From the IMG/VR virus record IMGVR_UViG_3300033407_000913, positions 1 to 35,466 of that record: DNA of 35,466 bases. One strand, written 5' to 3'. The translations under genes and the position numbers were made by a program. The DNA is from a virus (lineage: Duplodnaviria; Caudoviricetes). Below the pieces are notes generated by a model. That model saw only the letters and a program-made list of their open reading frames with translations, was not told the DNA's origin and searched no databases. The first letter of the stretch is position 1. Each line of letters begins with the position of its first letter. Of the stretch, positions 2,672 to 35,465 are shown piece by piece.

Positions 2672-2766
2672 AGTGAAGTGAGAAGTGAGAAGTGAGAAGA
2701 CCGAAGGGCCGTTTTTCTCTTCTCATTTCTCAATTCAATCTTCCCACTTCGGTCTTCTCTCTTCCC
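2672..2766. repeat. Dispersed ~90-bp element, copy 1
   Basis: (GAAGTGA)n followed by the core TCTCTTCTCATTTCTCAATTCAATCTTCCCACTTCGGTCTTC; 13-bp inverted repeat at 2694-2706/2747-2759. Confidence 0.95.
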
Positions 2767-5672: not shown

Positions 5673-5701
5673 ATCATGCGCGGAAACTCCGCGAGACGCA
5701 A
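5673..5701 (-). promoter_or_regulatory. Sigma70-type promoter for the RebB-like gene, with palindrome in the spacer
   Basis: TTGCGT-N17-CATGAT; the spacer contains CGCGGA-GTT-TCCGCG. Confidence 0.5.
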
Positions 5702-5702
5702 G

Positions 5703-6017
5703 TCAGCGCGCGTCCAACAGGTGGGCCTGAATCGCCCGCGTATCGTCGCGGATGACGATCACCGCGTCGCGGATCACCGCGTACTGCTCCGCCATGACGC
5801 TTTGGATTTGCTCCATCCTTTCGAGGCGTTCGGAGTTGGCCCTGATATCGGCCAACCCGCGATCCGCCACCGGTTGATGCTCCGCCCGGTACATCTCCAG
5901 GTTCGTCACCCGCCCGTCGAAGCTCTTGATCGGGGCCACGGCCAAACTGACCAGCGTCCCCAATCCAACCAGGCTGGCCAGCCACCAGCCGATTTGCTCT
6001 TTGCGCTGTCCGCTCAT
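5703..6017 (-). CDS. Single-TM plus coiled-coil membrane protein (possible holin/lysis accessory)
   Basis: MSGQRKEQIGWWLASLVGLGTLVSLAVAPI TM segment followed by a heptad-rich helix. The start was shortened from the ORF track because the longer version runs through the repeat element. Confidence 0.7.
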   Translation of the reverse strand: MSGQRKEQIGWWLASLVGLGTLVSLAVAPIKSFDGRVTNLEMYRAEHQPVADRGLADIRANSERLERMEQIQSVMAEQYAVIRDAVIVIRDDTRAIQAHLLDAR

Positions 6018-6081: not shown

Positions 6082-6160
6082 GAAGTGAGAAGTGAGAAGT
6101 GAGAAGTGGGAAGAGCAAAGGGCCGTTTCTCTCTTCTCATTTCTCAATTCAATCTTCCCA
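6082..6160. repeat. Dispersed element, copy 2
   Basis: GAAGTGA x3 plus GAAGTGG, then GGCCGTTTCTCTCTTCTCATTTCTCAATTCAATCTTCCCA. Confidence 0.95.
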
Positions 6161-6439: not shown

Positions 6440-6547
6440 AAGAGTGAAGTCAGAAGTGAGAAGTGAGAAGTGAGAAGCCTGAAGTGCGACCCCCCTTCTC
6501 TCTTCTCAGTTCTCAATTCAATCTTCCCACTTCGGTTTTCTCTCTTC
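6440..6547. repeat. Dispersed element, copy 3
   Basis: Heptamer run, then TTCTCTCTTCTCAGTTCTCAATTCAATCTTCCCACTTCGGTTTTCTCTCTTC; overlaps the 3' end of the upstream ORF. Confidence 0.95.
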
Positions 6548-7069
6548 ACGCTTTCGATATCGAGCCACGCAGGGGTCGGAAAGACCCAGCAGCTCCCCGA
6601 CCGCGCAGTGCGGCAACACCGGGTCGTTGACCAGCACGTCCGTGATCGTCACCAGTTCCAGTCGGATGGTCCGATTCGCAATCTGCTTCCCAAAAATATC
6701 AGGCAGCCAGATTTCCGCGAGTTCCGCCCGCCGTTTCCGCAAGTAGGCGGCCAGCGGCGAGCGCAGCGCCCAGTTCCATTTGCAGACCCTGGCCTTCGCG
6801 TCGTAGAGATCGGCGCCCCGGCAAAAACGAGCGTTTCCGAATTTGGCGGGCCTGCGTGGTTTATCGCCGAGGGCCGGCCACCACGGGAGCGGCAGCGGAT
6901 CGGGATCGAGCGGCGGAACGGATGGAGGATTCGACGCCGCTCCGCGTGATCGGACCGGCACGCTCCCAGCGGTAGCGGTTGTAATACTCGATGAGCCTTC
7001 CCGCGCGTTGTGCGGCCTGCTCCCCCAAAGCGCGGCGAACGAGACGGTAGGCCTCGGCTTTCGTGGCAT
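6518..7069 (-). CDS. Putative HTH DNA-binding protein (true start uncertain, likely downstream of 7069)
   Basis: C-terminal DPVLPHCAVGELLGLSDPCVARYRKR fits an HTH pattern (xVGELLGLSxxxVxRYR). The N-terminal part overlaps the end of the giant gene and looks like shadow sequence. Confidence 0.5.
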   Translation of the reverse strand: MPRKPRPTVSFAALWGSRPHNAREGSSSITTATAGSVPVRSRGAASNPPSVPPLDPDPLPLPWWPALGDKPRRPAKFGNARFCRGADLYDAKARVCKWNWALRSPLAAYLRKRRAELAEIWLPDIFGKQIANRTIRLELVTITDVLVNDPVLPHCAVGELLGLSDPCVARYRKREERKPKWED

Positions 7070-10000
7070 AACGGCGAGTTATACTGATTCCAAACACCTC
7101 TTTCAAGAGCACGGGAATGAATTCTTCGTCCGACTCCCCGCGCACCGCGCGGTACAGGCGCAGCGCTCCCCGTTGGCCCAGGCTGGGAATGGGCGCCGAC
7201 TGCCAGGCGACATGGCTCGCCGCCTCCCAGAGCGCCAACCCTTCGCTCGACGAGCTGAGGTCCCGCCCGGTCCATTCCGAGCGGTTGAACATCACTTCAA
7301 GCAGCGGCCGGGCCAGCGGCTGATTGAGCAGGAAAGGCACGCCGAAACCCCCGGGTCCCGTGGCGACCCGGAAATCATTGGCCAGCGGGAAGATCCACCG
7401 AAGGTCGAGGGTCCGCACCCGCCCTCGTCCGTCGCGGAACGCCACCGGCTGAAAATACCGATCCGCCCACGTGTGCCGCTGGCGGTCGGTGTTGAGGATG
7501 GCCATTTCATCGTCGGTGACTCCGAAGACCAGGCGCGTCACCGCATTGAGCACGTAAGGGAAGGCGTAGAAGGCCAACACACGTCCCGGATGCTCGCGCA
7601 TCCCCTTGGCCGTGATCTTCAAGGCCTGATCGCTGAACGCGACGAATGGATCGCCCAGGGGGAAATTGCGCAGAAAACGGGCGGCGATGCCCAGCTTGCT
7701 GTAGTTCTGCAAGTATTTGAAACGGTCGCGGGCGAAGGATTCAGGGTGTCCCTGTTGCTCCACGTCGTGAATCCACACCGCCATCACCGATACCTCGTCG
7801 AGCAGCCCGTAGCCCCGCCCCGCGATCCGCGCGCCCTCCTTGGCCGCTTCAACCAATCGGGCCAGGACCGCCATCACATCGGTGGTCGGGGTGTCCAGCA
7901 TCGGCAGGATGGACTTGCGCAGCTTCTCGCGATCGTAGCCGCCGTGCATGGCGTTCATCCGCGACAGCCGCCGGTAGGTCGAATCCTCCAGCCCGCCGAG
8001 CACGCGGCGAAAGGCGTCGATGAACAGATCACGGTGCGTGTACGGATTCATCCCCAGCAACGTCCAGAAGTAGTGCTGCCCGTAGATCTGCCGAAACCAC
8101 GTGGCCGGGTTGTAGACAACGTGCGCGGAACGAAACGCGGTCAGCAGCGCCCGCCATGATCCGGCCAGCAGCCCGTTCATCGTCAGGCGAAATTCGTTAA
8201 GGTTGTAGAAAAGCTCCTCGCTGACATACTTGTCGGCCAGGGGGCCCAGGCCGGGATTGGCGTCCAGCCTCCGCCAATGATGCTTCTCCTCCTCGGGCAG
8301 CTCCAGGTACGCGACTTCCTCCATCGCCTCGGTCTGCGCCAGCTGGTGGAAGACGCGCACGCCGTCGATGAACGCGCGCATGTGGGTCAGCGACGCCACC
8401 GCGAGCAGCCCGATATCCTCCACCGGGCCGAGCCACTCCACCTGCTTGGCGCTGAAAGGCTTTTTGACCCGTACCCGCTCCTTGACCGACTCACCGAAAT
8501 ACTCGTGCCAGCGCAAGCGCTCGTTCTCCGCGAACTCGATCGCACTCTGTTCGTCGCTGAACTGCATCACCTGCCCTCGGGCCAGCGTGACCGTCCAGAG
8601 ATTGTCCGCCCGCTTCTCGCGCAGCATTCCGATCGGAATCCGCGGAGCGGCCAATTCCGTCGAGAAGGTCAACGGCCCGAAGCTGTGCTCCCCCGCGTCG
8701 TCGCGGTGCATGTGGTAGCGGCTGGTGAGAAACGCCCGCCCGCTCTCCCTCCGCATGCGCACGATCTGCTCCCAGTTGACCAGCCCGCCGCTTTTGGCGG
8801 CCTTCAACAGCATCGGGTCTTTGAGAATTTCGTCCGTCAGGGCGTTGGAGGCGCTCTTGTAGGCCGCAACCCAGGCCTTCAGGTCGTCGCTGAGCAGGCC
8901 CCAATCCCGCTTGCCCCGGGCCACGTCGATGAGCAGGCGGTGCTCGGTGGCGGTGAACGCGTCCCACGCCGTCAAGGGCATGCGCCGCACCACGTATCGC
9001 CCGGTCTTGCGCGCCGCGGTCAAGGCCTCGTCCACCACGGCCATCTGCCGGCCCAGCGCCTCATCGTGTTCCTCGCGTCCCAACAAGGGGCTGATCCGTC
9101 GTGGAACGGTTTCCCCTTCCGCGTCGCGCAGCGGCTTGACGTGCTGATCCCAGGCTTCGGCGATGTCGCGGGGCAGGGTGTCCGGCGATCGGTGTCCGCC
9201 TTCCATGACGGCGATCGCGGTTTGTCGAATCATCTGCCAGGCGTCTGGCGGCCAGGGCTTTCCGATCTGCGTCGCCCGCTTCTCGGAAAGCACCCCGGCC
9301 AGTGCCCCGGCCATGTCTTCCGCCAGACGCCGCTGCGTACCCTTCCCCCCGCGCAGATCGTCGAGCAGGAATTCACGGTTCCCTTCGATCTTCCACTCCG
9401 CGCCCCACAAAAGCCGGGCGATCGAGTCCATGTAGCGCTGCCCCGCCGGCGTCTTCATGTGTTTCAGGCGCGCTGCGATGCGGTCCCAATTGCGCGCATA
9501 CGCGGACCACAGCTTTTGCCGCACCGTGGTCGGTCCGGGCATCCCCCCGCTCATGGCGCCCATGCCCAGCAGCGGGCGGTGCCAGTTCTGGCGCATCCAC
9601 TCGCGCTCTTCCGGGGTGAGGTGCTCGGGGAGCAAAGACTCCTGCCGCGGCCCGAACCAGGGCGTATCTCCAGCCGCCCCTCCCCCTTCCCCTTCCCCTC
9701 CCTCCCGGGGCTCCTCCACGTCGGCGTCTTCCGCACCGAGCTCGGCCACGTGACCGTCGCCCTGGTTGGCGTTCTGTTCCGCCGCCGCGGCGATCTGGTT
9801 ACTCATCGCGCTGACCCGCGCGGCGAGGCGCTCCATTTCCTCCTGCCGTGCGAACGGTCGTCCGATCTCCGTCCGCACTTCCGCCAACTTCTCTTTGTTC
9901 TGCGCAAGGTCGCGCGCCCAGCCTTCGCCCGTCACCTCATCGAGGGCGTGCGCGAACCCCGTCACCCAGCTGCGCAATTGTCCGGCGGTCGGTTCCTGGC

Positions 10001-13000
10001 TGGCCGACCAGGTCAGGACACGGCGGAGCGGCAGGCCGACGTCTTTCGCAAACTTCTCGTGCGCCGCGGCGTCCGGCGGAAACTCGATACCCAACGCAAG
10101 GCGCTGTTCGCGCGACGCCCAGGCGATATCCCGGGCGAGCGTCACACGCAGGCCGCGGAAGGCGCCCACCGTGCGGGTTTCTTTCTCCTGGAAAGCGGCG
10201 GACGCCTTGAAAAGGGCCGTGCCCGCTTCGCCGTGCCTTTGGTAGGTTTCCTGCCCCACCTGCATCACGAACGGGACCGCCGGTTCGAGTTTCGCAACCC
10301 ATTCCACGAACTTGCGCCCCGGAGCGATCAGCGCCGCCAGTCGCCCGGCTTCACTCTTGAGCAGTGCCTCTTTGCTGCGCAGGGCCAGCTGCGTGTCGCG
10401 GTGGTAGCGGGCTTCACCCTGGAGTCGGCGCAGCTCGTGCTCGGCTTTGGTCCATTCGAGCACCGCCTTGTTCTCGCTGGACTCGGCCATCGCCATCTGG
10501 AAGGCCATCGTGTGCAGGTCGACGTCCTCGATCTCGTCGGCGTCGATGCGCCCGGAGAGGAAGTCGTTGTTCACCTTCTGCTTCGCGGCGAGAAGGGAGT
10601 ACATGAATTCGTCGGACATGCCCTTGGTGACATACCGATACAGCCGCACCTCGCGGTTGCGGTTGCCGCTGCGCACGACCCGCCCCACCATCTGCGTGAG
10701 CGTCCCCGGCTCCCACGCCGGTTCCAATTGGTGCAGGGCGACGGCGCGCTCCTGGGCGTTGATCCCCTCGCCCATCTTCTTCTTCGATCCGATCAGCACA
10801 CGAATATCGCCGCGATTGAAGGCCGCCAGCAACGCCTCGACCGCAGCGTCGTTGTCTTTCGCGTCGTAGATCGTGGCGATGTCGCGTGCGGCGACGCCGC
10901 CGGCCACCAGCTTGCCGATGAAGTCCTGATAGGTGGAGAACGGCATCCGGCTCCCCGGATTGCCCAGGTCCAGGAAGACCATTTGAGTCAGGCGCTCGGC
11001 GGCGGTCTCCTTGTAAATCTCGATGACTTTCTCCGCCGCGGCGGCCAGCTTGCCGCCCGGCTCTTCGGGCAGGTCGGGATAGATGAGGCGCATGTCCAGG
11101 GCCGCTTTTTTCTCATCCCCGATGACGGTGAGCATGATGTCGTCGCCCGGCTGGGGCGGTCTGCCCCCGCGAGCGCGAATGGCTTCTACTCGCCCGGCGA
11201 TCACCTTCTGGTATTTGCGCTGCGCCGCCGAGACCGGCAGCACCACCAGCTCGAACGTGCGTTTCCCCTCGCTGTTTTCCCGGACGACGGGCACCCCCCC
11301 TTCCTTGCTCAAGAGCACGCGGTCCAGTTCCTCCTGCGGCGTGGGGTGGGCGATCTTATCCCACAGCGCGTGGAGCCCGCGCAAATTCTGGAAGCGGCGC
11401 AGGCGGGTCACCATCTTGTAGCGCCCCGCGACCCGTTCGAGGTCGGGCGCCCCCACCGCGAACCAGCGGACCCAGTCGTCGAAGGAGGCGATCTGTTCGC
11501 TTTTCAAGACGTCGGGGATGAGGTAACGCATCATGGCGTAGATTTCGCTGATGCTGTTGTTGACCGGCGTTCCGGTGAGGAAGGTCACCCCGCGCCCGTT
11601 TTGCAGGCGGCTGACGTAGCGGGCCTTCATGTACAGGTCGAGGGTGATCTGGTTGCCTTCGCGGGGACCGAGTCCGCGAATGTTCTCCATCTGCGTCGTG
11701 TACTGGAGGTTTTTGCCCTTGTGGGCCTCGTCGTAGATGATCCAGTCCAGCCCCAATTCCTCGAAGGGCAGGACGTCGAGCTTGCGCACCGCCCCCACCC
11801 GGTCCTGAAGCTGGGCGCGCAGATTGTCGCGCATTTTTTCCATCTGCTTGACCGAGCGTTTCCCCGCTTTGCTGTCGTCTTTCGCACCTTCGCCGATCGC
11901 GTCTTCAAGGTCAGAGATCGCCTCGCCGTAGAATTCTTCGAGCGTCGCCTCGGACACCGGCAAAGCCTTGAACTGCTCGTGGGGCAGGATGAAGACCGTC
12001 TTTTCCGCGAGCGCCACGCGGGCCAGGGTCCGGCCGCGGGCCTTGCCGGCCAGGTCTTTCGTGGACAGGGCCACGAAGCGCCCGCCGGGGTAGAGCTGGC
12101 GGGCCTGTTTGATGAACTGGTTGAGCGTCTTGCGCGCTACCACCACGACGACCTTGCGGGCCAGACCCAGGCGAATCACTTCCATTGCCGCCGCCGTGGC
12201 GGTGAACGTCTTGCCCCCGCCCACCGCGGTGTAGATCAGGGTGTTGTGCGGACTGGATAACACTCGATAGACCCCGTCCTTCTGATAGCCGCGCAGGGTG
12301 ATCGAGGGGTTGGAGCCGGGCAGGGTCAGGTGACCGCCGTCATACTTCGTCGGGACCCAGTTGTGGTGTTGCTCGTTGTAGTCGGCGAGCAGTTTGGGTC
12401 CCCAGTGCGCGTGCGACCATATCCAAGTCTCGAAGTGCGCTCGAATCTCCTCCAGTTTGCTCCGCGCCGCGTCGGACGCCGCCTGGTCCGTGAACACCGC
12501 GCCGTCCGGCGTCTTGTCCGTCACCTTCGGGGTCTTCATGTTCAGCGCGTCGGCGAGCAGCTCCCCTGGGCTATAGTCCCGCGTGCCCCAGCGGTCGTTG
12601 GCGTAGTGGGGCGCCGAGACCGTCCAGCGGCCCGTCGCCGGCGAGCGGCGCACGCTCACCGAGCGGGCGGCCCCCTGGCCGATCAGGGAGACGAGGAAGT
12701 CCTCGATCGTTTCCGCGGGAATCCACGGGGCGCCGAGCACGGCGCGGATCCGGCTGGCGGGCAGATCGGCGGGCTGAACGGCGACGAGGGCGTCGACGTT
12801 GCCCTGGTACGTCGCCTTGTCCACCTTGAGCAGCGCGCGGGCCTCTTCCAGCTTGGCCCGGACGTTGCCGCTCAAGTAGTCCGCGGTGCTGACCACCTCC
12901 CCGGCGGGAAGCGGGAAGGCCGCCCCTTCGCGAATGAGGCGGCCCCGGGCCCCGTCCTCGTCGGTGTTGAGCAACTCGGCGATGCGGCGGAGGTCGATGC

Positions 13001-16000
13001 GGTTGAACTCGTCGAGGCTGATGCTCAGCGCGTCCGCGGCCGTCGCCGCGCTGGTCGGCCTCCGGTAGGCCTCCAGGATTCGCCGCGTGAAGACGTCGCC
13101 CTTCGCCGCTTTTTTGGTCTTGCGATCATACTCCTCGATCGAACCGAGCAACGACAAGGTCAGCGGATCGTCGGCGAGCAGCTCCGCGTTGGCCGAGGCG
13201 TGGATGGGGGTCACGCCGCGCCGCCCCAGGCGGTCGTACTCGTCGTTGAGACTCTTCTGTAACCCGGGCAGACGCTCGTCGCCGGCGGGATCAATCGATG
13301 CGCGGAGCAATTCCAGGAGGCGATCACGCAATCCGATCAGCCCCTTGAGGCGTTCGACCGCCTTATCCCCGCGGTCGGCACGAATCGAGGATTCGACCTC
13401 TTCCGAGGCCTCGCCCTTCCGCCCCGCGCGGCGCAACTGCCCCTCGCGCACGAAGTAGGTTCCCTGGGGCAGCCCGTCCGGCGTGGGGATGCTCGCGGCG
13501 ATGGTGTCCAGCGTCGCCAGCTCCGCCTCCCGCCGACCGAATACGTCGCCGGGCAGGGTGGCCAGCGCCGCGCGCAAGTCGGTGGCCAGGTCGAAGCCTT
13601 CGCGGGCTGCAACGATCGTGGCCGTCGCTCCTTCCTCTCCGCCGGCGTGCCGCGACCCGGGTTTGATCTCGCCCAGGACCATCTCCGGGTGCGTCTGAAA
13701 ATACTCGTTGATGTGTTTACCGGGCAGCGCCGCGTATGGCTTGCTCTCCAGCCAGGCCTCGCCGCCGGCCGGTTCGCCTTCCGCCCGCTTCCGCAAAAAC
13801 AGGATGTCGGCCGTGACCTTGGTTCCGGGCAGCGAATCCTCATTCAGCCGGACGGCGCCGAGAAGGTCTGCGCGGGCGGCGATATAGGCCCGTACCCGAC
13901 CGTCCAGCTTGTCCATGCTGCCCTTGGAGCTGATGAAAACTGCCAGTCCGCCAGGTCGAACAAGGTCCAGGGCACGCACGAAAAAATAGTCGTGGATGCG
14001 TCTTCGCAGCCACTTGGGATACCGCCGATCGTGAATGAGAAGGTCTCCGAAGGGCACGTTGCCCACGGCGACGTCGAAGTAGTTTTTGGGAAGCAGCGCG
14101 TTTTCAAACGGCGAATGACGAATGTCGGAAGCCGGATAGAGAGCGTGCAGGATCGCGGCAGACGTGTCATCTTTCTCGACAGCCACGCGGCGACTCGCAT
14201 CGGCCAGGTGCAGAGGCTGAAGACCCAGGAAGTGACCCACCCCCGCCGAGGGTTCGAGGACGGCGCCGCCACTAAATCCCATGCGCTCGAGCGTCTCCCA
14301 CAAGGCGGAGATGATCGCCGGCGGCGTGTACATCGCGTTTTGCGTCGATTGGCGGGCCGCTTTCCATTCTTCATCGCTCAGCAGCTCCTCAAGTGTCTCG
14401 TATTCGTCATGCCAGCCTGTCGCGCGGTCCCAGGCAGCCCCGGGATCGAACGGCTGCGGTACCGACCCCCACCCCTGGTAGCGCGAGAGGATATCGCGCT
14501 CTTTTGCGGTGGCTGCGCGACCTTCCTCCTTAAGCCGCTTGACCAGGCGAATCGCCTCCACGTTGCGCCGGAAGATCGTCTTGGCCGGGTTTTTTCCGGC
14601 CGCGAACAGGTCGTCGGGATCGCGGACGACGTAGTCGGTGAGTCCGCCTTTTTCCGCGGTATGCGCAGGCAGCTTTTCCTCCGCGCCTTCGACCCCTACT
14701 GCTCCTCGGGCAGGTCGAGATACTGGCTCGCCACCTGTTCGTAGGCTTCCTCTCCCGGCACCCCCCTGGACACCAGCTCCCCGATCGCCCTTGCCGCCGC
14801 GCGCTGTTTCTCCCACGCCCACAGGTGCACGCGGCCCGCCTCCTTCAGCTCCCGGTGCAGCTTCGGCCGGCTGTCCCTCAGCACGCGCACCGCCTCCCGC
14901 CCCAGGTTGTTCAGCCGGCTCTTCGCCTCTTCGTCGTTCGACGGGCTGTTCGGTTGGTCGCTCAAGGTCGGTCTCCTGTTTAATCGTAGTGGGTTTCGGC
15001 GACTTAGTCGACGATTGTGCGGCGGTTTGTGTGATCCCTTCCCACTGATTCAGCGCCGCGTGCAGCTGCCCTGAGTCGGGCAGCGCAGGGGGAAGCTCCT
15101 CCAGGAAGCGGATCGTCGCGCGCAGGCTGCGGGGTAGTTTTCGCCCGGTCAGGCGCTCGTAGAGCGCCCGAGTCTTGCGGTTCTGCGGGTAGAGCAGCGA
15201 GCGCATCTTCTCCGGCAAGTCGGCGAAGCGCGGGGCCGTCAGGACGTTGTACATCGCCTCGGCCCACGGCTCGTGACTGGCCATCGCGTCGGCGTCGCTT
15301 ACTTGCTCGTCGGGGCGGAGGCTGCGGACGAACCCTCCGGCAAGGCGGACGATGGCGCTCGCGACGGGGCCTGTGTCGCCGGCAGCGTCAACTTTTTTTG
15401 TAACTCCTGCAACGCCCACAGCTCCGGCTTCGCCCGTCCCCGCGCCTTGATCGTCAGGCGCCGTGCCAGGCGGTGGTCGCAGTCCAACTTCTTCACGGCT
15501 CGTTTCACGAATCGCTCCTTCCGTCTCAGGAATCGCCCCTTCAGTTTCACGAATTGCCTCTTCAGTTTCACGAGGAGTCTCCGGTCGATCAACGTAAAAA
15601 TCCCGCTTCTCCAGGTCCCATTCCCAGCCGTGTACGTCGGTCACGCGGGCGCCTTCCGGGGTCGTTTCCACGGAGTCCACGACGACAGGGGTGCGGGCCA
15701 GGCCGGGAATACGGTCGCCCGGATTTAGGTCCTCGGCCCGGACGCGAATCCGCCTGGAGGACGGCAATGAGATCTCTGTGCCTCTGTGCCTCTGTGCCTC
15801 TGTGCCTGTCTCGGGGCTTATTTCTTTTTCTTGGGCTTCGGTGGGCAGCCGCTCAGCGCCGCGGCCACCGCCTGGTCCTGCGGGCGCCAGGCCTTTTTCA
15901 TCTCCCGGACGTTCTTCGAAACGGTCTTGCGGTCGCATCCCTTCTTCAACGGCATCTCTCTCTCCTTGCGCTGGAATGGTCTGGACGAGCGACTCAGCGC

Positions 16001-17930
16001 CGCTCGGTGGCATGGCAGGGGATGGGGCGGGCGGCCTGACGCCCGCCCCACGAGGAGGAACGCCCCCCTCGCTTGGTAGCTCTGGCGCTCCGGTCGTTTC
16101 CTCAACGTCCGGTAATAGATATTCTGTTGCTTTGGAAATTGTACGCTCTTGCTGAACACCCGCTACCGGTGGTGGTGGCGGGAAATAAGTTGCCGAAACC
16201 GGTGGTATCTCTTCCGTTCCCGGCGGCGGCGGTGCGGGTCTGGGTCGCGGCGTCTCGCGGAAGGCGTCTTTGGCCATCTCCGCAATCTGGCGGAGACGCT
16301 TTGGTTCCGGGGCCAGTGCGGCAGCACCCAGCGCCGCCCCCGGCGGGAGCATGAACCCGGCGAATTCAGCGGAAAGCTGATTCCAGCCCGGCCAGATCGG
16401 CTGCTGTTGCAGGGTGCTCGCGCCTCCCGCCGCTTCAATCGTCGCCTTGGCCGTCGATTCCATCAGCGTCGCGACCCGTTCCTCGCCGATCTCCTCGAAC
16501 GCATTGTTGACCCCGACCTCGCGCAGGTGGGCCCAGGCCACCTGAAACGTCGCGTACTTGCCGGGAAATCGGTTGACCAACTCGGCGGCCAGAGCGGTGC
16601 GCGTGCGGGCGATCCATTCACCGGAGCGCTCCAGCGGAACCGCGATCACCCGGGCCACGGGAAGCTTGGCGCCCCATTTGGCCAGGGCCATGCCCGCCCG
16701 CCCTACATTGGTGGCCGCGATGCCCAGGGCTTTTCCGGTGTATTCGCTGTACACCTGGATCACCGCGTTGATCGAGGAGTCGCGGAGGGCGCCCATGAAC
16801 GGCTGCCCGGATTCGGTGACCGCCGCGGCCAGGGCCTCGTCGTCTCCGGGCTGCACTTGGTAGCGGGGCAGCATGCGCCGGACGGTGTCTACGCCGGTCT
16901 GAAGAGCGATCGTGGGAATACCCCGCTGGACCGTCTCCGCTGCCGCATGTGTCAGGACGCGGGGGATGGTCTGTGTCGCCCCTTTCGCCGCCAGCTTCGT
17001 GAGGGCCTCCGCAGCGGCCTTGCTGAGCGTCTTACCTCCCACCCTCGCGGCTGCCGCTTTCGCCCCTTTTGCGACCAGACGGCCGACGCCCCCGCCCAGG
17101 GCCAACTCGCCCATGAAGGGGATGCTCTCCGCGGGAATGCTCGCCACGGTCCCGCCCCAGGTCTTGCCCCGGCTTTCGCGGGCGATGCGCTCCTGGAGCC
17201 CGGTCAGAACCTCAAAGTCGTCCGCGGTCCCCTCCCCCCGCGTCGTCCGCCCCAACGCCCGGTGGACCTTGACCAGTTCGGCCCCGGTCAGCGCATGCTC
17301 CACGTAAGGCAGCTTCTCCACCAGGCCGCGCACCGTCCCGAATTCCCGGCTAGTAACCTGGGTAAACGTTTCCGGTCCGGGTAGCTGGGTAAGCGGTTCG
17401 AGTCCGTAGCCCCGTCGAAAGACGTTTAGGAAACGGCGTTTCCCTTCTTCACTTTCCAGTTGCGCAAAGTAGGGATGTTCGCGGGCTTCGATCTCCGCCT
17501 GGGCCGCGAACGCACGCTCCGCGATCTGTTCCTCGCGCGTTTTTTTGGGCGGACCGCCGGTGAGGGTCTCGACCAGAGACCGCCCCATGCGTTTGAGCAG
17601 GCCGGGTTTTTCGGTGGCGGGACCGACCGGCGTGGGCGGTTCGGACGGTGTTCGGTAGGGTACGGTGCGCGCAGGCGGCCAGGGCGGCGGTGCGGCCGGG
17701 GTGGGTCCGCGGAAATCCGCCGGCGCCTGGTCGCCGCGCCCGAAGAATCCGTCGAGCATCCCCTCGTGGCTTCCGCCCAGAGGTTCCAGGGGGCGGATGG
17801 AACGCACCAGTTCTCCGACGGGTGCACGGTGGCCGTTGAGCGGGTTGATCGACTCAACCAGGGAACCCGGCGGGTAGCCGTGTTCGCGGGCGATGCTTTC
17901 TCCCGCCAGCTCCAGGAGGGGATCGGGCAC
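6861..17930 (-). CDS. Giant DarB-like polyvalent protein: N6-adenine methyltransferase + SF2 (SNF2-like) helicase with large N- and C-terminal extensions
   Basis: 3689 aa; GGAGG RBS. MTase motif I LEPSAGVGHF (14229-14258) and motif IV NVPF (14049-14060). Walker A AVGGGKT (12207-12227), DEAH (11721-11732), TGTP, GEGINAQ, motif VI QMVGRVVRSGN. Located right after the ejection genes. Confidence 0.92.
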   Translation of the reverse strand: MPDPLLELAGESIAREHGYPPGSLVESINPLNGHRAPVGELVRSIRPLEPLGGSHEGMLDGFFGRGDQAPADFRGPTPAAPPPWPPARTVPYRTPSEPPTPVGPATEKPGLLKRMGRSLVETLTGGPPKKTREEQIAERAFAAQAEIEAREHPYFAQLESEEGKRRFLNVFRRGYGLEPLTQLPGPETFTQVTSREFGTVRGLVEKLPYVEHALTGAELVKVHRALGRTTRGEGTADDFEVLTGLQERIARESRGKTWGGTVASIPAESIPFMGELALGGGVGRLVAKGAKAAAARVGGKTLSKAAAEALTKLAAKGATQTIPRVLTHAAAETVQRGIPTIALQTGVDTVRRMLPRYQVQPGDDEALAAAVTESGQPFMGALRDSSINAVIQVYSEYTGKALGIAATNVGRAGMALAKWGAKLPVARVIAVPLERSGEWIARTRTALAAELVNRFPGKYATFQVAWAHLREVGVNNAFEEIGEERVATLMESTAKATIEAAGGASTLQQQPIWPGWNQLSAEFAGFMLPPGAALGAAALAPEPKRLRQIAEMAKDAFRETPRPRPAPPPPGTEEIPPVSATYFPPPPPVAGVQQERTISKATEYLLPDVEETTGAPELPSEGGVPPRGAGVRPPAPSPAMPPSGAESLVQTIPAQGERDAVEEGMRPQDRFEERPGDEKGLAPAGPGGGRGAERLPTEAQEKEISPETGTEAQRHRGTEISLPSSRRIRVRAEDLNPGDRIPGLARTPVVVDSVETTPEGARVTDVHGWEWDLEKRDFYVDRPETPRETEEAIRETEGAIPETEGAIRETSREEVGLRPPPGTAPDDQGAGTGEAGAVGVAGVTKKVDAAGDTGPVASAIVRLAGGFVRSLRPDEQVSDADAMASHEPWAEAMYNVLTAPRFADLPEKMRSLLYPQNRKTRALYERLTGRKLPRSLRATIRFLEELPPALPDSGQLHAALNQWEGITQTAAQSSTKSPKPTTIKQETDLERPTEQPVERRRGEEPAEQPGAGGGARAEGQPAEAAPGAEGGGPRAPVGVGETARGGKGDRGAGVQGGAGRGSLRTGGEPVSRPARGAVGVEGAEEKLPAHTAEKGGLTDYVVRDPDDLFAAGKNPAKTIFRRNVEAIRLVKRLKEEGRAATAKERDILSRYQGWGSVPQPFDPGAAWDRATGWHDEYETLEELLSDEEWKAARQSTQNAMYTPPAIISALWETLERMGFSGGAVLEPSAGVGHFLGLQPLHLADASRRVAVEKDDTSAAILHALYPASDIRHSPFENALLPKNYFDVAVGNVPFGDLLIHDRRYPKWLRRRIHDYFFVRALDLVRPGGLAVFISSKGSMDKLDGRVRAYIAARADLLGAVRLNEDSLPGTKVTADILFLRKRAEGEPAGGEAWLESKPYAALPGKHINEYFQTHPEMVLGEIKPGSRHAGGEEGATATIVAAREGFDLATDLRAALATLPGDVFGRREAELATLDTIAASIPTPDGLPQGTYFVREGQLRRAGRKGEASEEVESSIRADRGDKAVERLKGLIGLRDRLLELLRASIDPAGDERLPGLQKSLNDEYDRLGRRGVTPIHASANAELLADDPLTLSLLGSIEEYDRKTKKAAKGDVFTRRILEAYRRPTSAATAADALSISLDEFNRIDLRRIAELLNTDEDGARGRLIREGAAFPLPAGEVVSTADYLSGNVRAKLEEARALLKVDKATYQGNVDALVAVQPADLPASRIRAVLGAPWIPAETIEDFLVSLIGQGAARSVSVRRSPATGRWTVSAPHYANDRWGTRDYSPGELLADALNMKTPKVTDKTPDGAVFTDQAASDAARSKLEEIRAHFETWIWSHAHWGPKLLADYNEQHHNWVPTKYDGGHLTLPGSNPSITLRGYQKDGVYRVLSSPHNTLIYTAVGGGKTFTATAAAMEVIRLGLARKVVVVVARKTLNQFIKQARQLYPGGRFVALSTKDLAGKARGRTLARVALAEKTVFILPHEQFKALPVSEATLEEFYGEAISDLEDAIGEGAKDDSKAGKRSVKQMEKMRDNLRAQLQDRVGAVRKLDVLPFEELGLDWIIYDEAHKGKNLQYTTQMENIRGLGPREGNQITLDLYMKARYVSRLQNGRGVTFLTGTPVNNSISEIYAMMRYLIPDVLKSEQIASFDDWVRWFAVGAPDLERVAGRYKMVTRLRRFQNLRGLHALWDKIAHPTPQEELDRVLLSKEGGVPVVRENSEGKRTFELVVLPVSAAQRKYQKVIAGRVEAIRARGGRPPQPGDDIMLTVIGDEKKAALDMRLIYPDLPEEPGGKLAAAAEKVIEIYKETAAERLTQMVFLDLGNPGSRMPFSTYQDFIGKLVAGGVAARDIATIYDAKDNDAAVEALLAAFNRGDIRVLIGSKKKMGEGINAQERAVALHQLEPAWEPGTLTQMVGRVVRSGNRNREVRLYRYVTKGMSDEFMYSLLAAKQKVNNDFLSGRIDADEIEDVDLHTMAFQMAMAESSENKAVLEWTKAEHELRRLQGEARYHRDTQLALRSKEALLKSEAGRLAALIAPGRKFVEWVAKLEPAVPFVMQVGQETYQRHGEAGTALFKASAAFQEKETRTVGAFRGLRVTLARDIAWASREQRLALGIEFPPDAAAHEKFAKDVGLPLRRVLTWSASQEPTAGQLRSWVTGFAHALDEVTGEGWARDLAQNKEKLAEVRTEIGRPFARQEEMERLAARVSAMSNQIAAAAEQNANQGDGHVAELGAEDADVEEPREGGEGEGGGAAGDTPWFGPRQESLLPEHLTPEEREWMRQNWHRPLLGMGAMSGGMPGPTTVRQKLWSAYARNWDRIAARLKHMKTPAGQRYMDSIARLLWGAEWKIEGNREFLLDDLRGGKGTQRRLAEDMAGALAGVLSEKRATQIGKPWPPDAWQMIRQTAIAVMEGGHRSPDTLPRDIAEAWDQHVKPLRDAEGETVPRRISPLLGREEHDEALGRQMAVVDEALTAARKTGRYVVRRMPLTAWDAFTATEHRLLIDVARGKRDWGLLSDDLKAWVAAYKSASNALTDEILKDPMLLKAAKSGGLVNWEQIVRMRRESGRAFLTSRYHMHRDDAGEHSFGPLTFSTELAAPRIPIGMLREKRADNLWTVTLARGQVMQFSDEQSAIEFAENERLRWHEYFGESVKERVRVKKPFSAKQVEWLGPVEDIGLLAVASLTHMRAFIDGVRVFHQLAQTEAMEEVAYLELPEEEKHHWRRLDANPGLGPLADKYVSEELFYNLNEFRLTMNGLLAGSWRALLTAFRSAHVVYNPATWFRQIYGQHYFWTLLGMNPYTHRDLFIDAFRRVLGGLEDSTYRRLSRMNAMHGGYDREKLRKSILPMLDTPTTDVMAVLARLVEAAKEGARIAGRGYGLLDEVSVMAVWIHDVEQQGHPESFARDRFKYLQNYSKLGIAARFLRNFPLGDPFVAFSDQALKITAKGMREHPGRVLAFYAFPYVLNAVTRLVFGVTDDEMAILNTDRQRHTWADRYFQPVAFRDGRGRVRTLDLRWIFPLANDFRVATGPGGFGVPFLLNQPLARPLLEVMFNRSEWTGRDLSSSSEGLALWEAASHVAWQSAPIPSLGQRGALRLYRAVRGESDEEFIPVLLKEVFGISITRRYATKAEAYRLVRRALGEQAAQRAGRLIEYYNRYRWERAGPITRSGVESSIRSAARSRSAAAPVVAGPRR
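14696..14965 (-). CDS. Nested out-of-frame gene, TnpV-like small helical protein
   Basis: TTG with AGGAG 7 nt upstream. LGREAVRVLRDSRPKLHRELKEAGRV...EAYEQVASQYLDLPEE resembles the TnpV-type pattern YGRxxxxxLKExRPxxYxEL..GxL...AEExV. Confidence 0.7.
   Translation of the reverse strand: MSDQPNSPSNDEEAKSRLNNLGREAVRVLRDSRPKLHRELKEAGRVHLWAWEKQRAAARAIGELVSRGVPGEEAYEQVASQYLDLPEEQ
14983..15011 (-). promoter_or_regulatory. Internal sigma70-type promoter for the nested gene
   Basis: TCGACT-N17-TACGAT directly upstream of TAAACAGGAG, in a locally AT-rich patch. Confidence 0.5.
15502..15572. repeat. 21-bp in-frame coding repeat (RETEEAI/RETEGAI/PETEGAI/RET)
   Basis: Visible in both DNA and translation of the giant ORF. 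Confidence 0.85.
15774..15805. repeat. (CTCTGTGC)4 octamer repeat inside the giant ORF
   Basis: Four perfect 8-mers. Confidence 0.95.
15818..15955 (-). CDS. Nested out-of-frame gene, 45-aa basic MPLKKG-type phage protein
   Basis: ATG with AAGGAG 6 nt upstream. MPLKKGCDRKTVSKNVREMKKAWRPQDQAVAAALS matches the pattern of a common small phage protein (MPLKKGxSxKTISxNI..M..GxPQxQAVAIALS). Confidence 0.75.
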   Translation of the reverse strand: MPLKKGCDRKTVSKNVREMKKAWRPQDQAVAAALSGCPPKPKKKK

Positions 17931-35081: not shown

Positions 35082-35465
35082 CTAACCCTCGTGCGCGCCT
35101 TGTGGCTGGTCGCAAGCGGCGTAACCCTCCGAAGGCTTGGGCGGCTTTGCCCATTCTTCGAGCAGGTCCTCGCGGACGAATTGCAACGCGAGGCCGTTTT
35201 GCTGCACCGCGGCCATCACGACTTCGGGCGTCTGCTCGCGGACGAATCGCAACGCGAGGCCGTCATTCTGCACCGCGGCCATCACGACTTCGGGCGTCTG
35301 TTCCAGGACGTATTGCAACGCGTAGCCGTCATTCTGCACCGCGGCCAGCACCACCTCGGGCGTCTGTTCCAGGACGTATTGCAACGCGAGGCCGTTTTTC
35401 TCCACCGCGGCCAGCACGACTTCGGGCGTCTGCTCGCGGACGAATCGCAACATGTAGCCGTCTCG
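35082..35465 (-). CDS. DUF4116-like 22-aa repeat protein (5' truncated)
   Basis: Tandem ALQYVLEQTPEVVLAAVQNDGY-type units with 66-bp period; frame open to the window edge. Confidence 0.85.
   Translation of the reverse strand, partial: RDGYMLRFVREQTPEVVLAAVEKNGLALQYVLEQTPEVVLAAVQNDGYALQYVLEQTPEVVMAAVQNDGLALRFVREQTPEVVMAAVQQNGLALQFVREDLLEEWAKPPKPSEGYAACDQPQGAHEG

What the first reader, a model, noticed from the sequence alone, without database searches (positions are those of the whole stretch)
14696..15011. Complete TnpV-like gene with own promoter hidden out of frame just before the MTase domain
Within a low-complexity linker of the giant ORF, another frame encodes an 89-aa helical protein. 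It has TCGACT-N17-TACGAT, an AGGAG RBS and a TTG start, and its stop falls about 60 nt before the MTase-helicase core begins (DYVVRDP...). The giant-frame translation here (EGQPAEAAPGAEGGGPRAPVGVGE) looks like a shadow, so selection appears to act on the nested frame. Inference: a two-component system in which a separately transcribed small protein regulates, chaperones or neutralises the DarB-like enzyme. It may be the relic of a TnpV+MTase-helicase cassette captured in frame by an ejection gene.
Basis: partly seen in the sequence, partly recalled or inferred. Interest (0 to 1): 0.85.

Follow-up and report, generated by a model that had tools for sequence, protein, structure and literature searches.

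The report
Hidden partner gene inside antirestriction giant
An 89-residue reading frame with its own ribosome site and promoter-like signal lies one base out of step inside a phage's giant DNA methylase-helicase gene, the same hidden layout recurs in most related giants examined from phages, plasmids and conjugative elements, and its protein likely acts as a dedicated brake or chaperone for that enzyme.

Summary
Confirmed. Window 14965-14696 (minus strand) encodes an 89-aa helical protein (AlphaFold pLDDT 86) in the +1 frame of a 3689-aa DarB-like gene, ending 60 nt before the methylase core. Family members occur at 147 of 188 non-redundant related methylase-helicase loci. All 150 hits are in the +1 phase, and 146 of the 147 upstream hits lie inside the giant's open frame. 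Close relatives conserve the nested protein more than the giant's linker, and the giant frame stays open far beyond chance, so both frames are kept. The -10 box is conserved in the window's clade; the -35 is not. The protein misses Pfam TnpV itself but links to it by profile (97.6%). Its best structural match is PG0816/DUF1896, a separate gene just upstream of Bacteroidaceae methylase-helicases. The four cultured-phage records with a hit leave it unannotated as a separate gene; P1 darB has none. Likely role (inferred, about 45%): a separately expressed partner that restrains or chaperones the delivered enzyme. Binding and expression are untested. The direction of capture is unresolved. This scan noted the same arrangement earlier on at least seven other genomes; my paper searches found no description of it.

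The parts
14696..14965 (-). Nested gene: 89-aa five-helix TnpV/DUF1896-like protein, TTG start, TAG stop, +1 frame of the giant gene
14973..14977 (-). Shine-Dalgarno AGGAG, 7 nt before the TTG
   Evidence: sequence; purine-rich SD-like runs at the same place in clade relatives
14983..14988 (-). -10-like hexamer TACGAT ending 17 nt before the start; TATAAT in L003, L004, L005, L007, L184
   Evidence: T, A, T invariant in 9 of 9 aligned loci, which are 9 of the 11 members of the clade
15006..15011 (-). -35-like hexamer TCGACT at 17-nt spacing; weak and not conserved across the clade (TTGAGT in L003, TTGCGT in L184, poor in the others)
6861..17930 (-). Host gene: 3689-aa DarB-like polyvalent protein in the virion gene block; N-terminal region, low-complexity linker (residues about 990-1078 overlap the nested gene), then LPD36-like helices, adenine methylase and SNF2 ATPase
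   Evidence: (phrog_10089, residues 911-2735)
9770..14636 (-). Methylase-helicase core of the giant (about residues 1099-2720); motifs YQGWGS 1151, YTP 1201, LEPSAGVG 1225, NVPF 1291, GGGKT 1904, DEAH 2067, TGTP 2119, QMVGRVVR 2413
   Evidence: TaqI methylase match E 6e-6; model of residues 1098-1877, pLDDT 92; the C-terminal limit is taken from homolog matches

Best explanation
An 89-residue protein frame with its own ribosome site lies in the +1 frame of the linker of the DarB-like giant, and it likely encodes a dedicated partner that would bind and restrain (or chaperone) the giant's methylase-SNF2 core. Shown: the frame, its signals, its conservation, its fixed phase and place in relatives, and that both frames are kept open. 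Inferred steps: (1) the giant is packed in the virion through its N-terminal part and enters the cell with the DNA, as P1 DarB is believed to; (2) the giant has to read through the small gene because its delivery or targeting part lies upstream and the enzyme lies downstream; (3) the small gene is translated from the giant's own mRNA and also from an internal sigma70-type promoter, so it would be present whenever the enzyme is made, and host polymerase could also make it soon after entry; (4) the small protein keeps the DNA-translocating methylase idle in the producing cell and shuts the delivered copy off after it has acted on the incoming DNA.
For: Recurrence: 147 of 188 non-redundant loci (144 of 177 with >=700 nt upstream) carry a family member; 150 of 150 hits are in the +1 phase among 23,143 frames searched in all six phases; reversed decoys reach at best E 0.24. 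Linkage to the enzyme survives changes of layout: nested right before the methylase in phages; canonical TnpV nested about 290 codons into Firmicutes giants (25 of 25 tested hit Pfam TnpV); a separate ATGA-coupled upstream gene in L103; DUF1896 as a separate gene directly upstream in 4 of 5 Bacteroidaceae loci (three of the four score identically). Fold and profile tie DUF1896 to the family (top match Z 6.7; hhalign 84%). Promoter-like -10 is enriched before phage-type starts (25 of 50 against 6.9 expected; >=8 of 12 in 12 of 50 against 1.2). No SD-led restart of the enzyme after the nested gene (1 of 90), so the internal promoter would serve the small gene alone. The upstream part is exchangeable: about 1000 residues here, a short peptide with a QLDLF-type motif in 22 of 24 short-N-terminal loci. 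P1 DarB carries an N-terminal packaging signal (PMC9024508, passages). TnpV-bearing mobilisable elements insert preferentially into snf2 genes (PMC9815147, passages).
Against: Nothing here separates a brake from an activator or adaptor. 33 of 177 loci with enough upstream DNA had no hit, including P1 darB, and pTi C58 shows no such frame; some of the phage misses do have other SD-led +1 frames. Eight of nine distant window pairs near 60% nucleotide identity showed the opposite codon-position pattern. No -10 enrichment in Firmicutes-type loci (15 of 50 against 13.5). Z 6.7 is within the range common for small helical proteins (note), and canonical TnpV does not match DUF1896 directly. TnpV has been postulated to be Xis-like instead (PMC3158075, passages).
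Confidence: 0.45

Rival explanations
1. Positive helper: the small protein loads the giant into the capsid (or onto the conjugation channel), or activates and loads the methylase-SNF2 core on DNA, in the way Ulx is thought to serve P1 DarB.
For: Same tight linkage; co-transcription with the giant follows from the layout; Bcep22-like phages have no recognised homologs of P1's Dar helpers (PMC9144972, passages).
Against: A packaging helper would not obviously need its own sigma70-type promoter. The family is kept whether the giant goes by virion or sits on conjugative elements, and tracks the enzyme core rather than the delivery part. P1 Ulx is not hit by the family profile.
Confidence: 0.27
2. 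DNA-binding regulator or excision factor (the old Xis-like guess for TnpV) that is linked to the enzyme gene but does not touch the protein.
For: TnpV was postulated to act in excision by likeness to lambda Xis (PMC3158075, passages); it sits on mobilisable elements with serine recombinases; the window protein has a basic middle part (14 K/R).
Against: The model is an all-helical five-helix bundle, whereas Xis is a winged helix (recalled); family net charge is mostly negative (median -3); position is tied to the methylase-helicase, not to recombinases, in this locus set (which was selected by the methylase).
Confidence: 0.12
3. Exclusion factor acting in trans: a resident element makes the protein from the internal promoter to disarm the methylase-helicase delivered by a rival incoming phage or conjugative element, and small mobilisable elements carry stolen copies.
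For: Own promoter; free TnpV copies at the broken ends of giant genes in L008 and L059 fit the snf2-inserting elements of PMC9815147.
Against: Nested copies are clade-specific and follow the same clades as their own methylase by inspection; this phage's lifestyle is unknown.
Confidence: 0.11
4. Unexpressed relic or chance open frame in a GC-rich linker.
For: GC-rich DNA holds many long shadow frames; TTG start; promoter below the scan threshold; no direct Pfam hit.
Against: Homologs, 150 of 150 hits in one phase, 47-52% amino-acid identity in the nested frame against 28-35% in the giant frame for four close relatives, conserved -10 and SD, confident fold.
Confidence: 0.03

Closest known systems
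TnpV (Pfam PF14198) of Tn4451/Tn4453-type mobilisable elements
   Same: Profile match of the window's family to canonical TnpV: hhalign 97.6%, E 3e-12 over 72 columns; 49 of 97 family members hit PF14198 at E<=0.01; 25 of 25 nested Firmicutes copies tested are canonical TnpV.
   Different: The window protein lacks TnpV's N-terminal GDYLIP strand region and part of its C-terminal helix (gap), does not hit the Pfam model itself, and lies inside another gene in a phage rather than free on a transposon.
DUF1896 / PG0816 (PF08989, PDB 2APL)
   Same: Top structural match among 48,161 chains (Z 6.7, rmsd 2.2, 62 residues; next 5.1); Foldseek rank 3, E 4.1; hhalign 84%; gene directly upstream of a DarB-type methylase-helicase in 4 of 5 loci.
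   Different: About 150 aa with an extra C-terminal domain; a separate gene overlapping the enzyme start by a few bases in the other phase; the scores alone are middling.
DarB-type methylase-SNF2 dyad of polyvalent proteins (Iyer et al. 2017, PMC5512222; P1 DarB)
   Same: Host gene has the LPD36 GxGx motif, TP, NVPF and SF2 motifs and matches the DarB-like PHROG.
   Different: That paper's main text has no mention of TnpV (0 occurrences) and its dyad section names no nested partner (supplements not read). P1 darB has no upstream linker and no family hit.
Embedded Rz1 within Rz (spanins)
   Same: A whole functional gene inside another phage gene whose product works with the host gene's product (embedded class described in PMC9144972, passage; same-strand +1 frame recalled).
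   Different: Rz/Rz1 are small lysis proteins. Here the host is a 3700-aa enzyme, the nested gene has its own promoter-like site, and the layout spans phages, plasmids and conjugative elements.

Membership tests
TnpV (PF14198) | Score above the Pfam gathering cut-off (27 bits) | tested here: not met
   No PF14198 match for the window protein; one close homolog, P0005, passes at 31.6 bits
TnpV (PF14198) | Profile-level homology to canonical TnpV | tested here: met
   hhalign 97.6%, E 3e-12; 49 of 97 members hit at E<=0.01
TnpV (PF14198) | Free gene on a Tn4451-type mobilisable element with a serine recombinase | tested here: not met
   Lies inside a giant gene in a phage structural block with terminase, portal and capsid
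DUF1896 (PF08989) | Pfam match over the full 142-position model | tested here: not met
   No match for the window protein; 1 of 97 family members hit at E 0.0036
DUF1896 (PF08989) | Shared N-terminal helical fold | tested here: inconclusive
   Top hit Z 6.7, hhalign 84%, Foldseek E 4.1: consistent, each below a firm threshold
DarB-type methylase-SNF2 dyad (host gene) | LPD36 + N6-adenine methylase motifs + SWI2/SNF2 ATPase in one chain | tested here: met
   motif IV reads NVPF rather than NPPY/F, as in most relatives
DarB-type methylase-SNF2 dyad (host gene) | Virion-packed and protects DNA from type I restriction | not testable with these tools
   Gene lies among virion genes; a DarB-like protein was found in JC1 virions (PMC9144972)
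Functional same-strand nested gene | Both frames open and under selection | tested here: met
   distant window pairs are the noted exception
Functional same-strand nested gene | Transcribed and translated | not testable with these tools
   Needs start-site mapping, ribosome profiling or mass spectrometry
Enzyme-inhibitor (antitoxin-like) pair | Direct binding and inhibition of the enzyme | not tested
   The complex prediction could not be queued; inhibition needs experiment

The most novel reading that the evidence does not exclude
TnpV, DUF1896 and this hidden phage protein are one superfamily: the missing second component of the DarB-type methylase-SNF2 machine found across phages, plasmids and conjugative elements. 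It is hidden inside the enzyme's own gene, switches the delivered DNA motor off, and has been pirated by mobilisable elements that insert into the same gene.
Probability: 0.35. Interest if true: 0.88.

Novelty: new variant of a known kind. Interest (0 to 1): 0.72.

Why it matters
DarB-type methylase-helicases are among the commonest proteins that mobile DNA delivers into a new cell (2050 plasmid and 125 phage records matched), yet how they are controlled is unknown. A conserved gene hidden inside them is missed by annotation; in two plasmid records the small gene is called and the enzyme is truncated instead. The finding gives two function-unknown families, TnpV and DUF1896, a specific partner to test. 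It also means deletions of these giant genes remove two genes at once, and it supplies a wide natural series of long same-strand overlaps for studying how nested genes arise.

Tried and rejected
Complex prediction of the small protein with giant residues 1098-1877: the queue was full and the job never ran, so there is no verdict. Inter-protein covariation on 104 paired loci: signal above shuffles (402 against about 210 pairs at z>4) but spread evenly along the core, as shared ancestry would give; no binding site could be placed. Sequencing runs: no RNA holder listed. Direct family searches of the small protein: Pfam, PHROGs, NCBIfam and PADLOC gave nothing above cut-off; the word-index search found only itself; the viral contig scan with it found no relative; the ESM Atlas gave unnamed clusters at 0.88-0.90 and one cluster with 11% TnpV at 0.82, a lead only. 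Foldseek gave no match at E<=0.001. Internal restart making a short enzyme from the internal promoter: rejected (1 of 90 with SD>=5; none in the window). Relic ATGA coupling at nested stops: 0 of 90. Direction of capture from a tree: unresolved; the root was chosen by me and L103 sits among nested clades. Clamp-motif tethering for this phage: no such motif in the window's giant. Ulx as a family member: no hit. DUF1896 in four records behind no-hit or Bacteroidaceae loci: 0 of 4. No Rfam match in the window.

Full report
Observation. The window is a linear virus record with terminase, portal, capsid, adaptor and internal virion genes on the minus strand. ORF 6861..17930 encodes 3689 aa and matches the DarB-like PHROG over residues 911-2735; methylase and SF2 motifs are intact. 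Inside it, in the +1 frame, lies ORF 14965..14696: TTG start, 89 aa, AGGAG 7 nt upstream, TCGACT-17-TACGAT further up, stop 60 nt before DYVVRDP. The promoter scores 8 of 12 and the consensus scan missed it. Contigs from two other studies match both ends of the ORF exactly.

The protein is real by comparison. phmmer over 1.84 billion representatives gave 19 hits; besides itself and two spurious long repetitive proteins there are 16 relatives, 12 of which hit Pfam TnpV at E<0.1 and one above cut-off. The window protein itself does not hit TnpV. A 97-sequence alignment matches canonical TnpV at 97.6% and folds to five helices, pLDDT 86.4.

Recurrence. I gathered loci by the methylase only. Leaving out two copies of the window, 260 loci collapsed to 188 clusters at 90% methylase identity. 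A profile seeded with the window protein and 15 phmmer hits, iterated over all six frames, hit 147 clusters. All 150 hits are in the +1 phase, none among the 1,169 in-frame, 3,448 +2 or 13,904 antisense frames, and reversed decoys reach only E 0.24. Of the hits, 146 lie upstream of the methylase inside the giant's open frame (the window and PBC5 included), one precedes a second methylase copy, and three lie outside. With at least 700 nt upstream the count is 144 of 177: viral contigs 54 of 72, cultured phages 4 of 8, genomes 55 of 66, metagenome contigs 30 of 30, plus the window. Several phage misses have other SD-led +1 frames at the same place; P1 darB has none. The GenBank records of VvAW1, Pavtok and Mwe-JY07 list only the giant there, and PBC5 has the sequence as the tail of orf33. 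Of 20 giants scanned as proteins only (20 of the 120 listed, the window's own included), 17 have their best +1-frame-compatible stretch 130-470 residues before the LPD36 motif. Five of six plasmid loci have a +1 frame inside the giant's frame, two with weak profile support and three by position only.

Both frames are kept. For the window against L003, L004, L005 and L184, identity is 47-52% in the nested frame and 28-35% in the giant frame, and the giant's wobble position is the least variable; in the methylase the wobble is the most variable (aligned in the nested frame, which favours it). Frame-blind nucleotide alignments give the same trend (nested position 3 more variable than position 2 in 338 of 466 adjacent-type and 469 of 514 Firmicutes-type pairs; pairs are not independent) and support it for the four close relatives, but eight of nine distant window pairs near 60% identity go the other way. 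Random synonymous recoding would leave the giant's phase open in about 6 of 136 nested genes, 0.08 for the window; in fact 146 of 147 upstream hits are read through.

Expression signals. SD-like runs of 4 or more bases precede 108 of 146 nested starts (starts were chosen to maximise this, no control). A TAnnnT box occurs before 25 of 50 phage-type starts against 6.9 expected, but is not enriched in Firmicutes-type loci. In 9 of the 11 loci of the window's clade that I aligned, T, A and T of the box are invariant and five read TATAAT; a good -35 is seen only in three. No SD-led restart of the enzyme follows the nested gene (1 of 90).

Layouts. (a) Phage type: long N-terminal part, nested gene, methylase. 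(b) Firmicutes type: canonical TnpV nested about 290 codons into the giant and 0.7-3 kb before the methylase. (c) Short type: the giant starts shortly before the nested gene, with a QLDLF-type peptide in 22 of 24 loci; QLDLF is the clamp-binding consensus (bioRxiv 10.1101/2025.01.04.631326, passages); the window's giant lacks it. (d) Free: L103, small gene then enzyme with ATGA overlap, which gives the same phase. (e) DUF1896 as a separate gene directly before the enzyme in 4 of 5 Bacteroidaceae loci, three of them scoring identically. PG0816/DUF1896 is the top structural match (Z 6.7) and a moderate profile match (84%); canonical TnpV does not match it directly. The tree shows nesting throughout the family and L103 among nested clades, so the order of events is open.

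Mechanism. The constant is the pairing of the small helical protein with the methylase-SNF2 core, while the part upstream is exchangeable. P1 DarB has an N-terminal packaging signal (PMC9024508, passages), which suggests why the giant must read through the small gene. A gene placed this way would be made with the giant and also on its own. I infer a dedicated partner and favour a brake or chaperone (0.45) over a loader or activator (0.27), a DNA-binding or excision factor (0.12) and a trans-acting exclusion factor (0.11). Binding, inhibition and expression are all untested.

Literature. Nine searches of the held library listed no paper describing a gene nested in DarB-like or SNF2-methylase genes; most results I saw only as listings and abstract starts. 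I read passages and the dyad section of PMC5512222, and passages of PMC3158075, PMC9815147, PMC9024508, PMC9144972, PMC11437467 and the Mu preprint. No supplements were read, those of PMC5512222 may bear on novelty, and subscription journals are not covered. Earlier notes of this scan report the same arrangement on at least seven other genomes; they are not independent evidence and I scored on my own tests.

Verdict. A real, conserved, mostly unannotated nested gene belonging to a wide two-part module; a new variant of known kinds (embedded genes, DarB-type dyads, TnpV). Interest 0.72.

Noticed in passing
L003:5143-5364; L015 about 2050-2230; L012:5420-5599 and 5690-5920; L084:3189-3356: Further short +1-frame ORFs inside the giant next to (or instead of) the TnpV-like gene, suggesting nested mini-operons; no NCBIfam match for the two tested.
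   Followed up: partly
L021 (phage PBC5) 1-2482 and 1906 onward: The giant is split: orf33 runs into the TnpV-like sequence in frame and the methylase-helicase is in another frame; a one-base sequencing error or a natural frame change.
   Followed up: partly
L112, L128, L130, L140, L143, L149, L201-L256; plasmids L271, L273: Short-N-terminal methylase-helicases begin with a basic peptide plus a QLDLF-type clamp motif (QMTFDF/QLAFDF in the plasmids); 18 of 56 Firmicutes-type giants have such a motif between nested gene and methylase. Suggests tethering to the sliding clamp.
   Followed up: partly
L008:9923-10294; L059:7956-8327: A second, free TnpV gene at the truncated end of the giant, as expected for mobilisable elements inserted in snf2 genes.
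   Followed up: partly
L271:3190-3495; L273:3187-3492: The plasmid records annotate the small gene and start the helicase downstream of its conserved N-terminal helices, so the enzyme looks truncated.
   Followed up: yes
window 2675-2699, 6082-6113, 6446-6486: Three separate arrays of the 7-mer GAAGTGA (3.6-4.6 copies) near gene ends; unexplained.
   Followed up: no
window 15501-15573: 21-nt tandem repeat (3.5 copies) in the giant's linker, encoding RETEGAI-type units.
   Followed up: no
window 35082-35453 (minus): DUF4116 repeat protein with a 66-nt tandem repeat, upstream of the terminase region.
   Followed up: no
window 8277-12260 (plus): 1327-codon antisense open frame over the helicase region; L003 has a similar 1710-codon one; probably a GC-rich shadow.
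   Followed up: no
L197: One open frame holds two copies of the nested gene plus methylase unit, 5.4 kb apart, with the same N-terminal sequence and upstream signal; duplication or assembly artefact.
   Followed up: no
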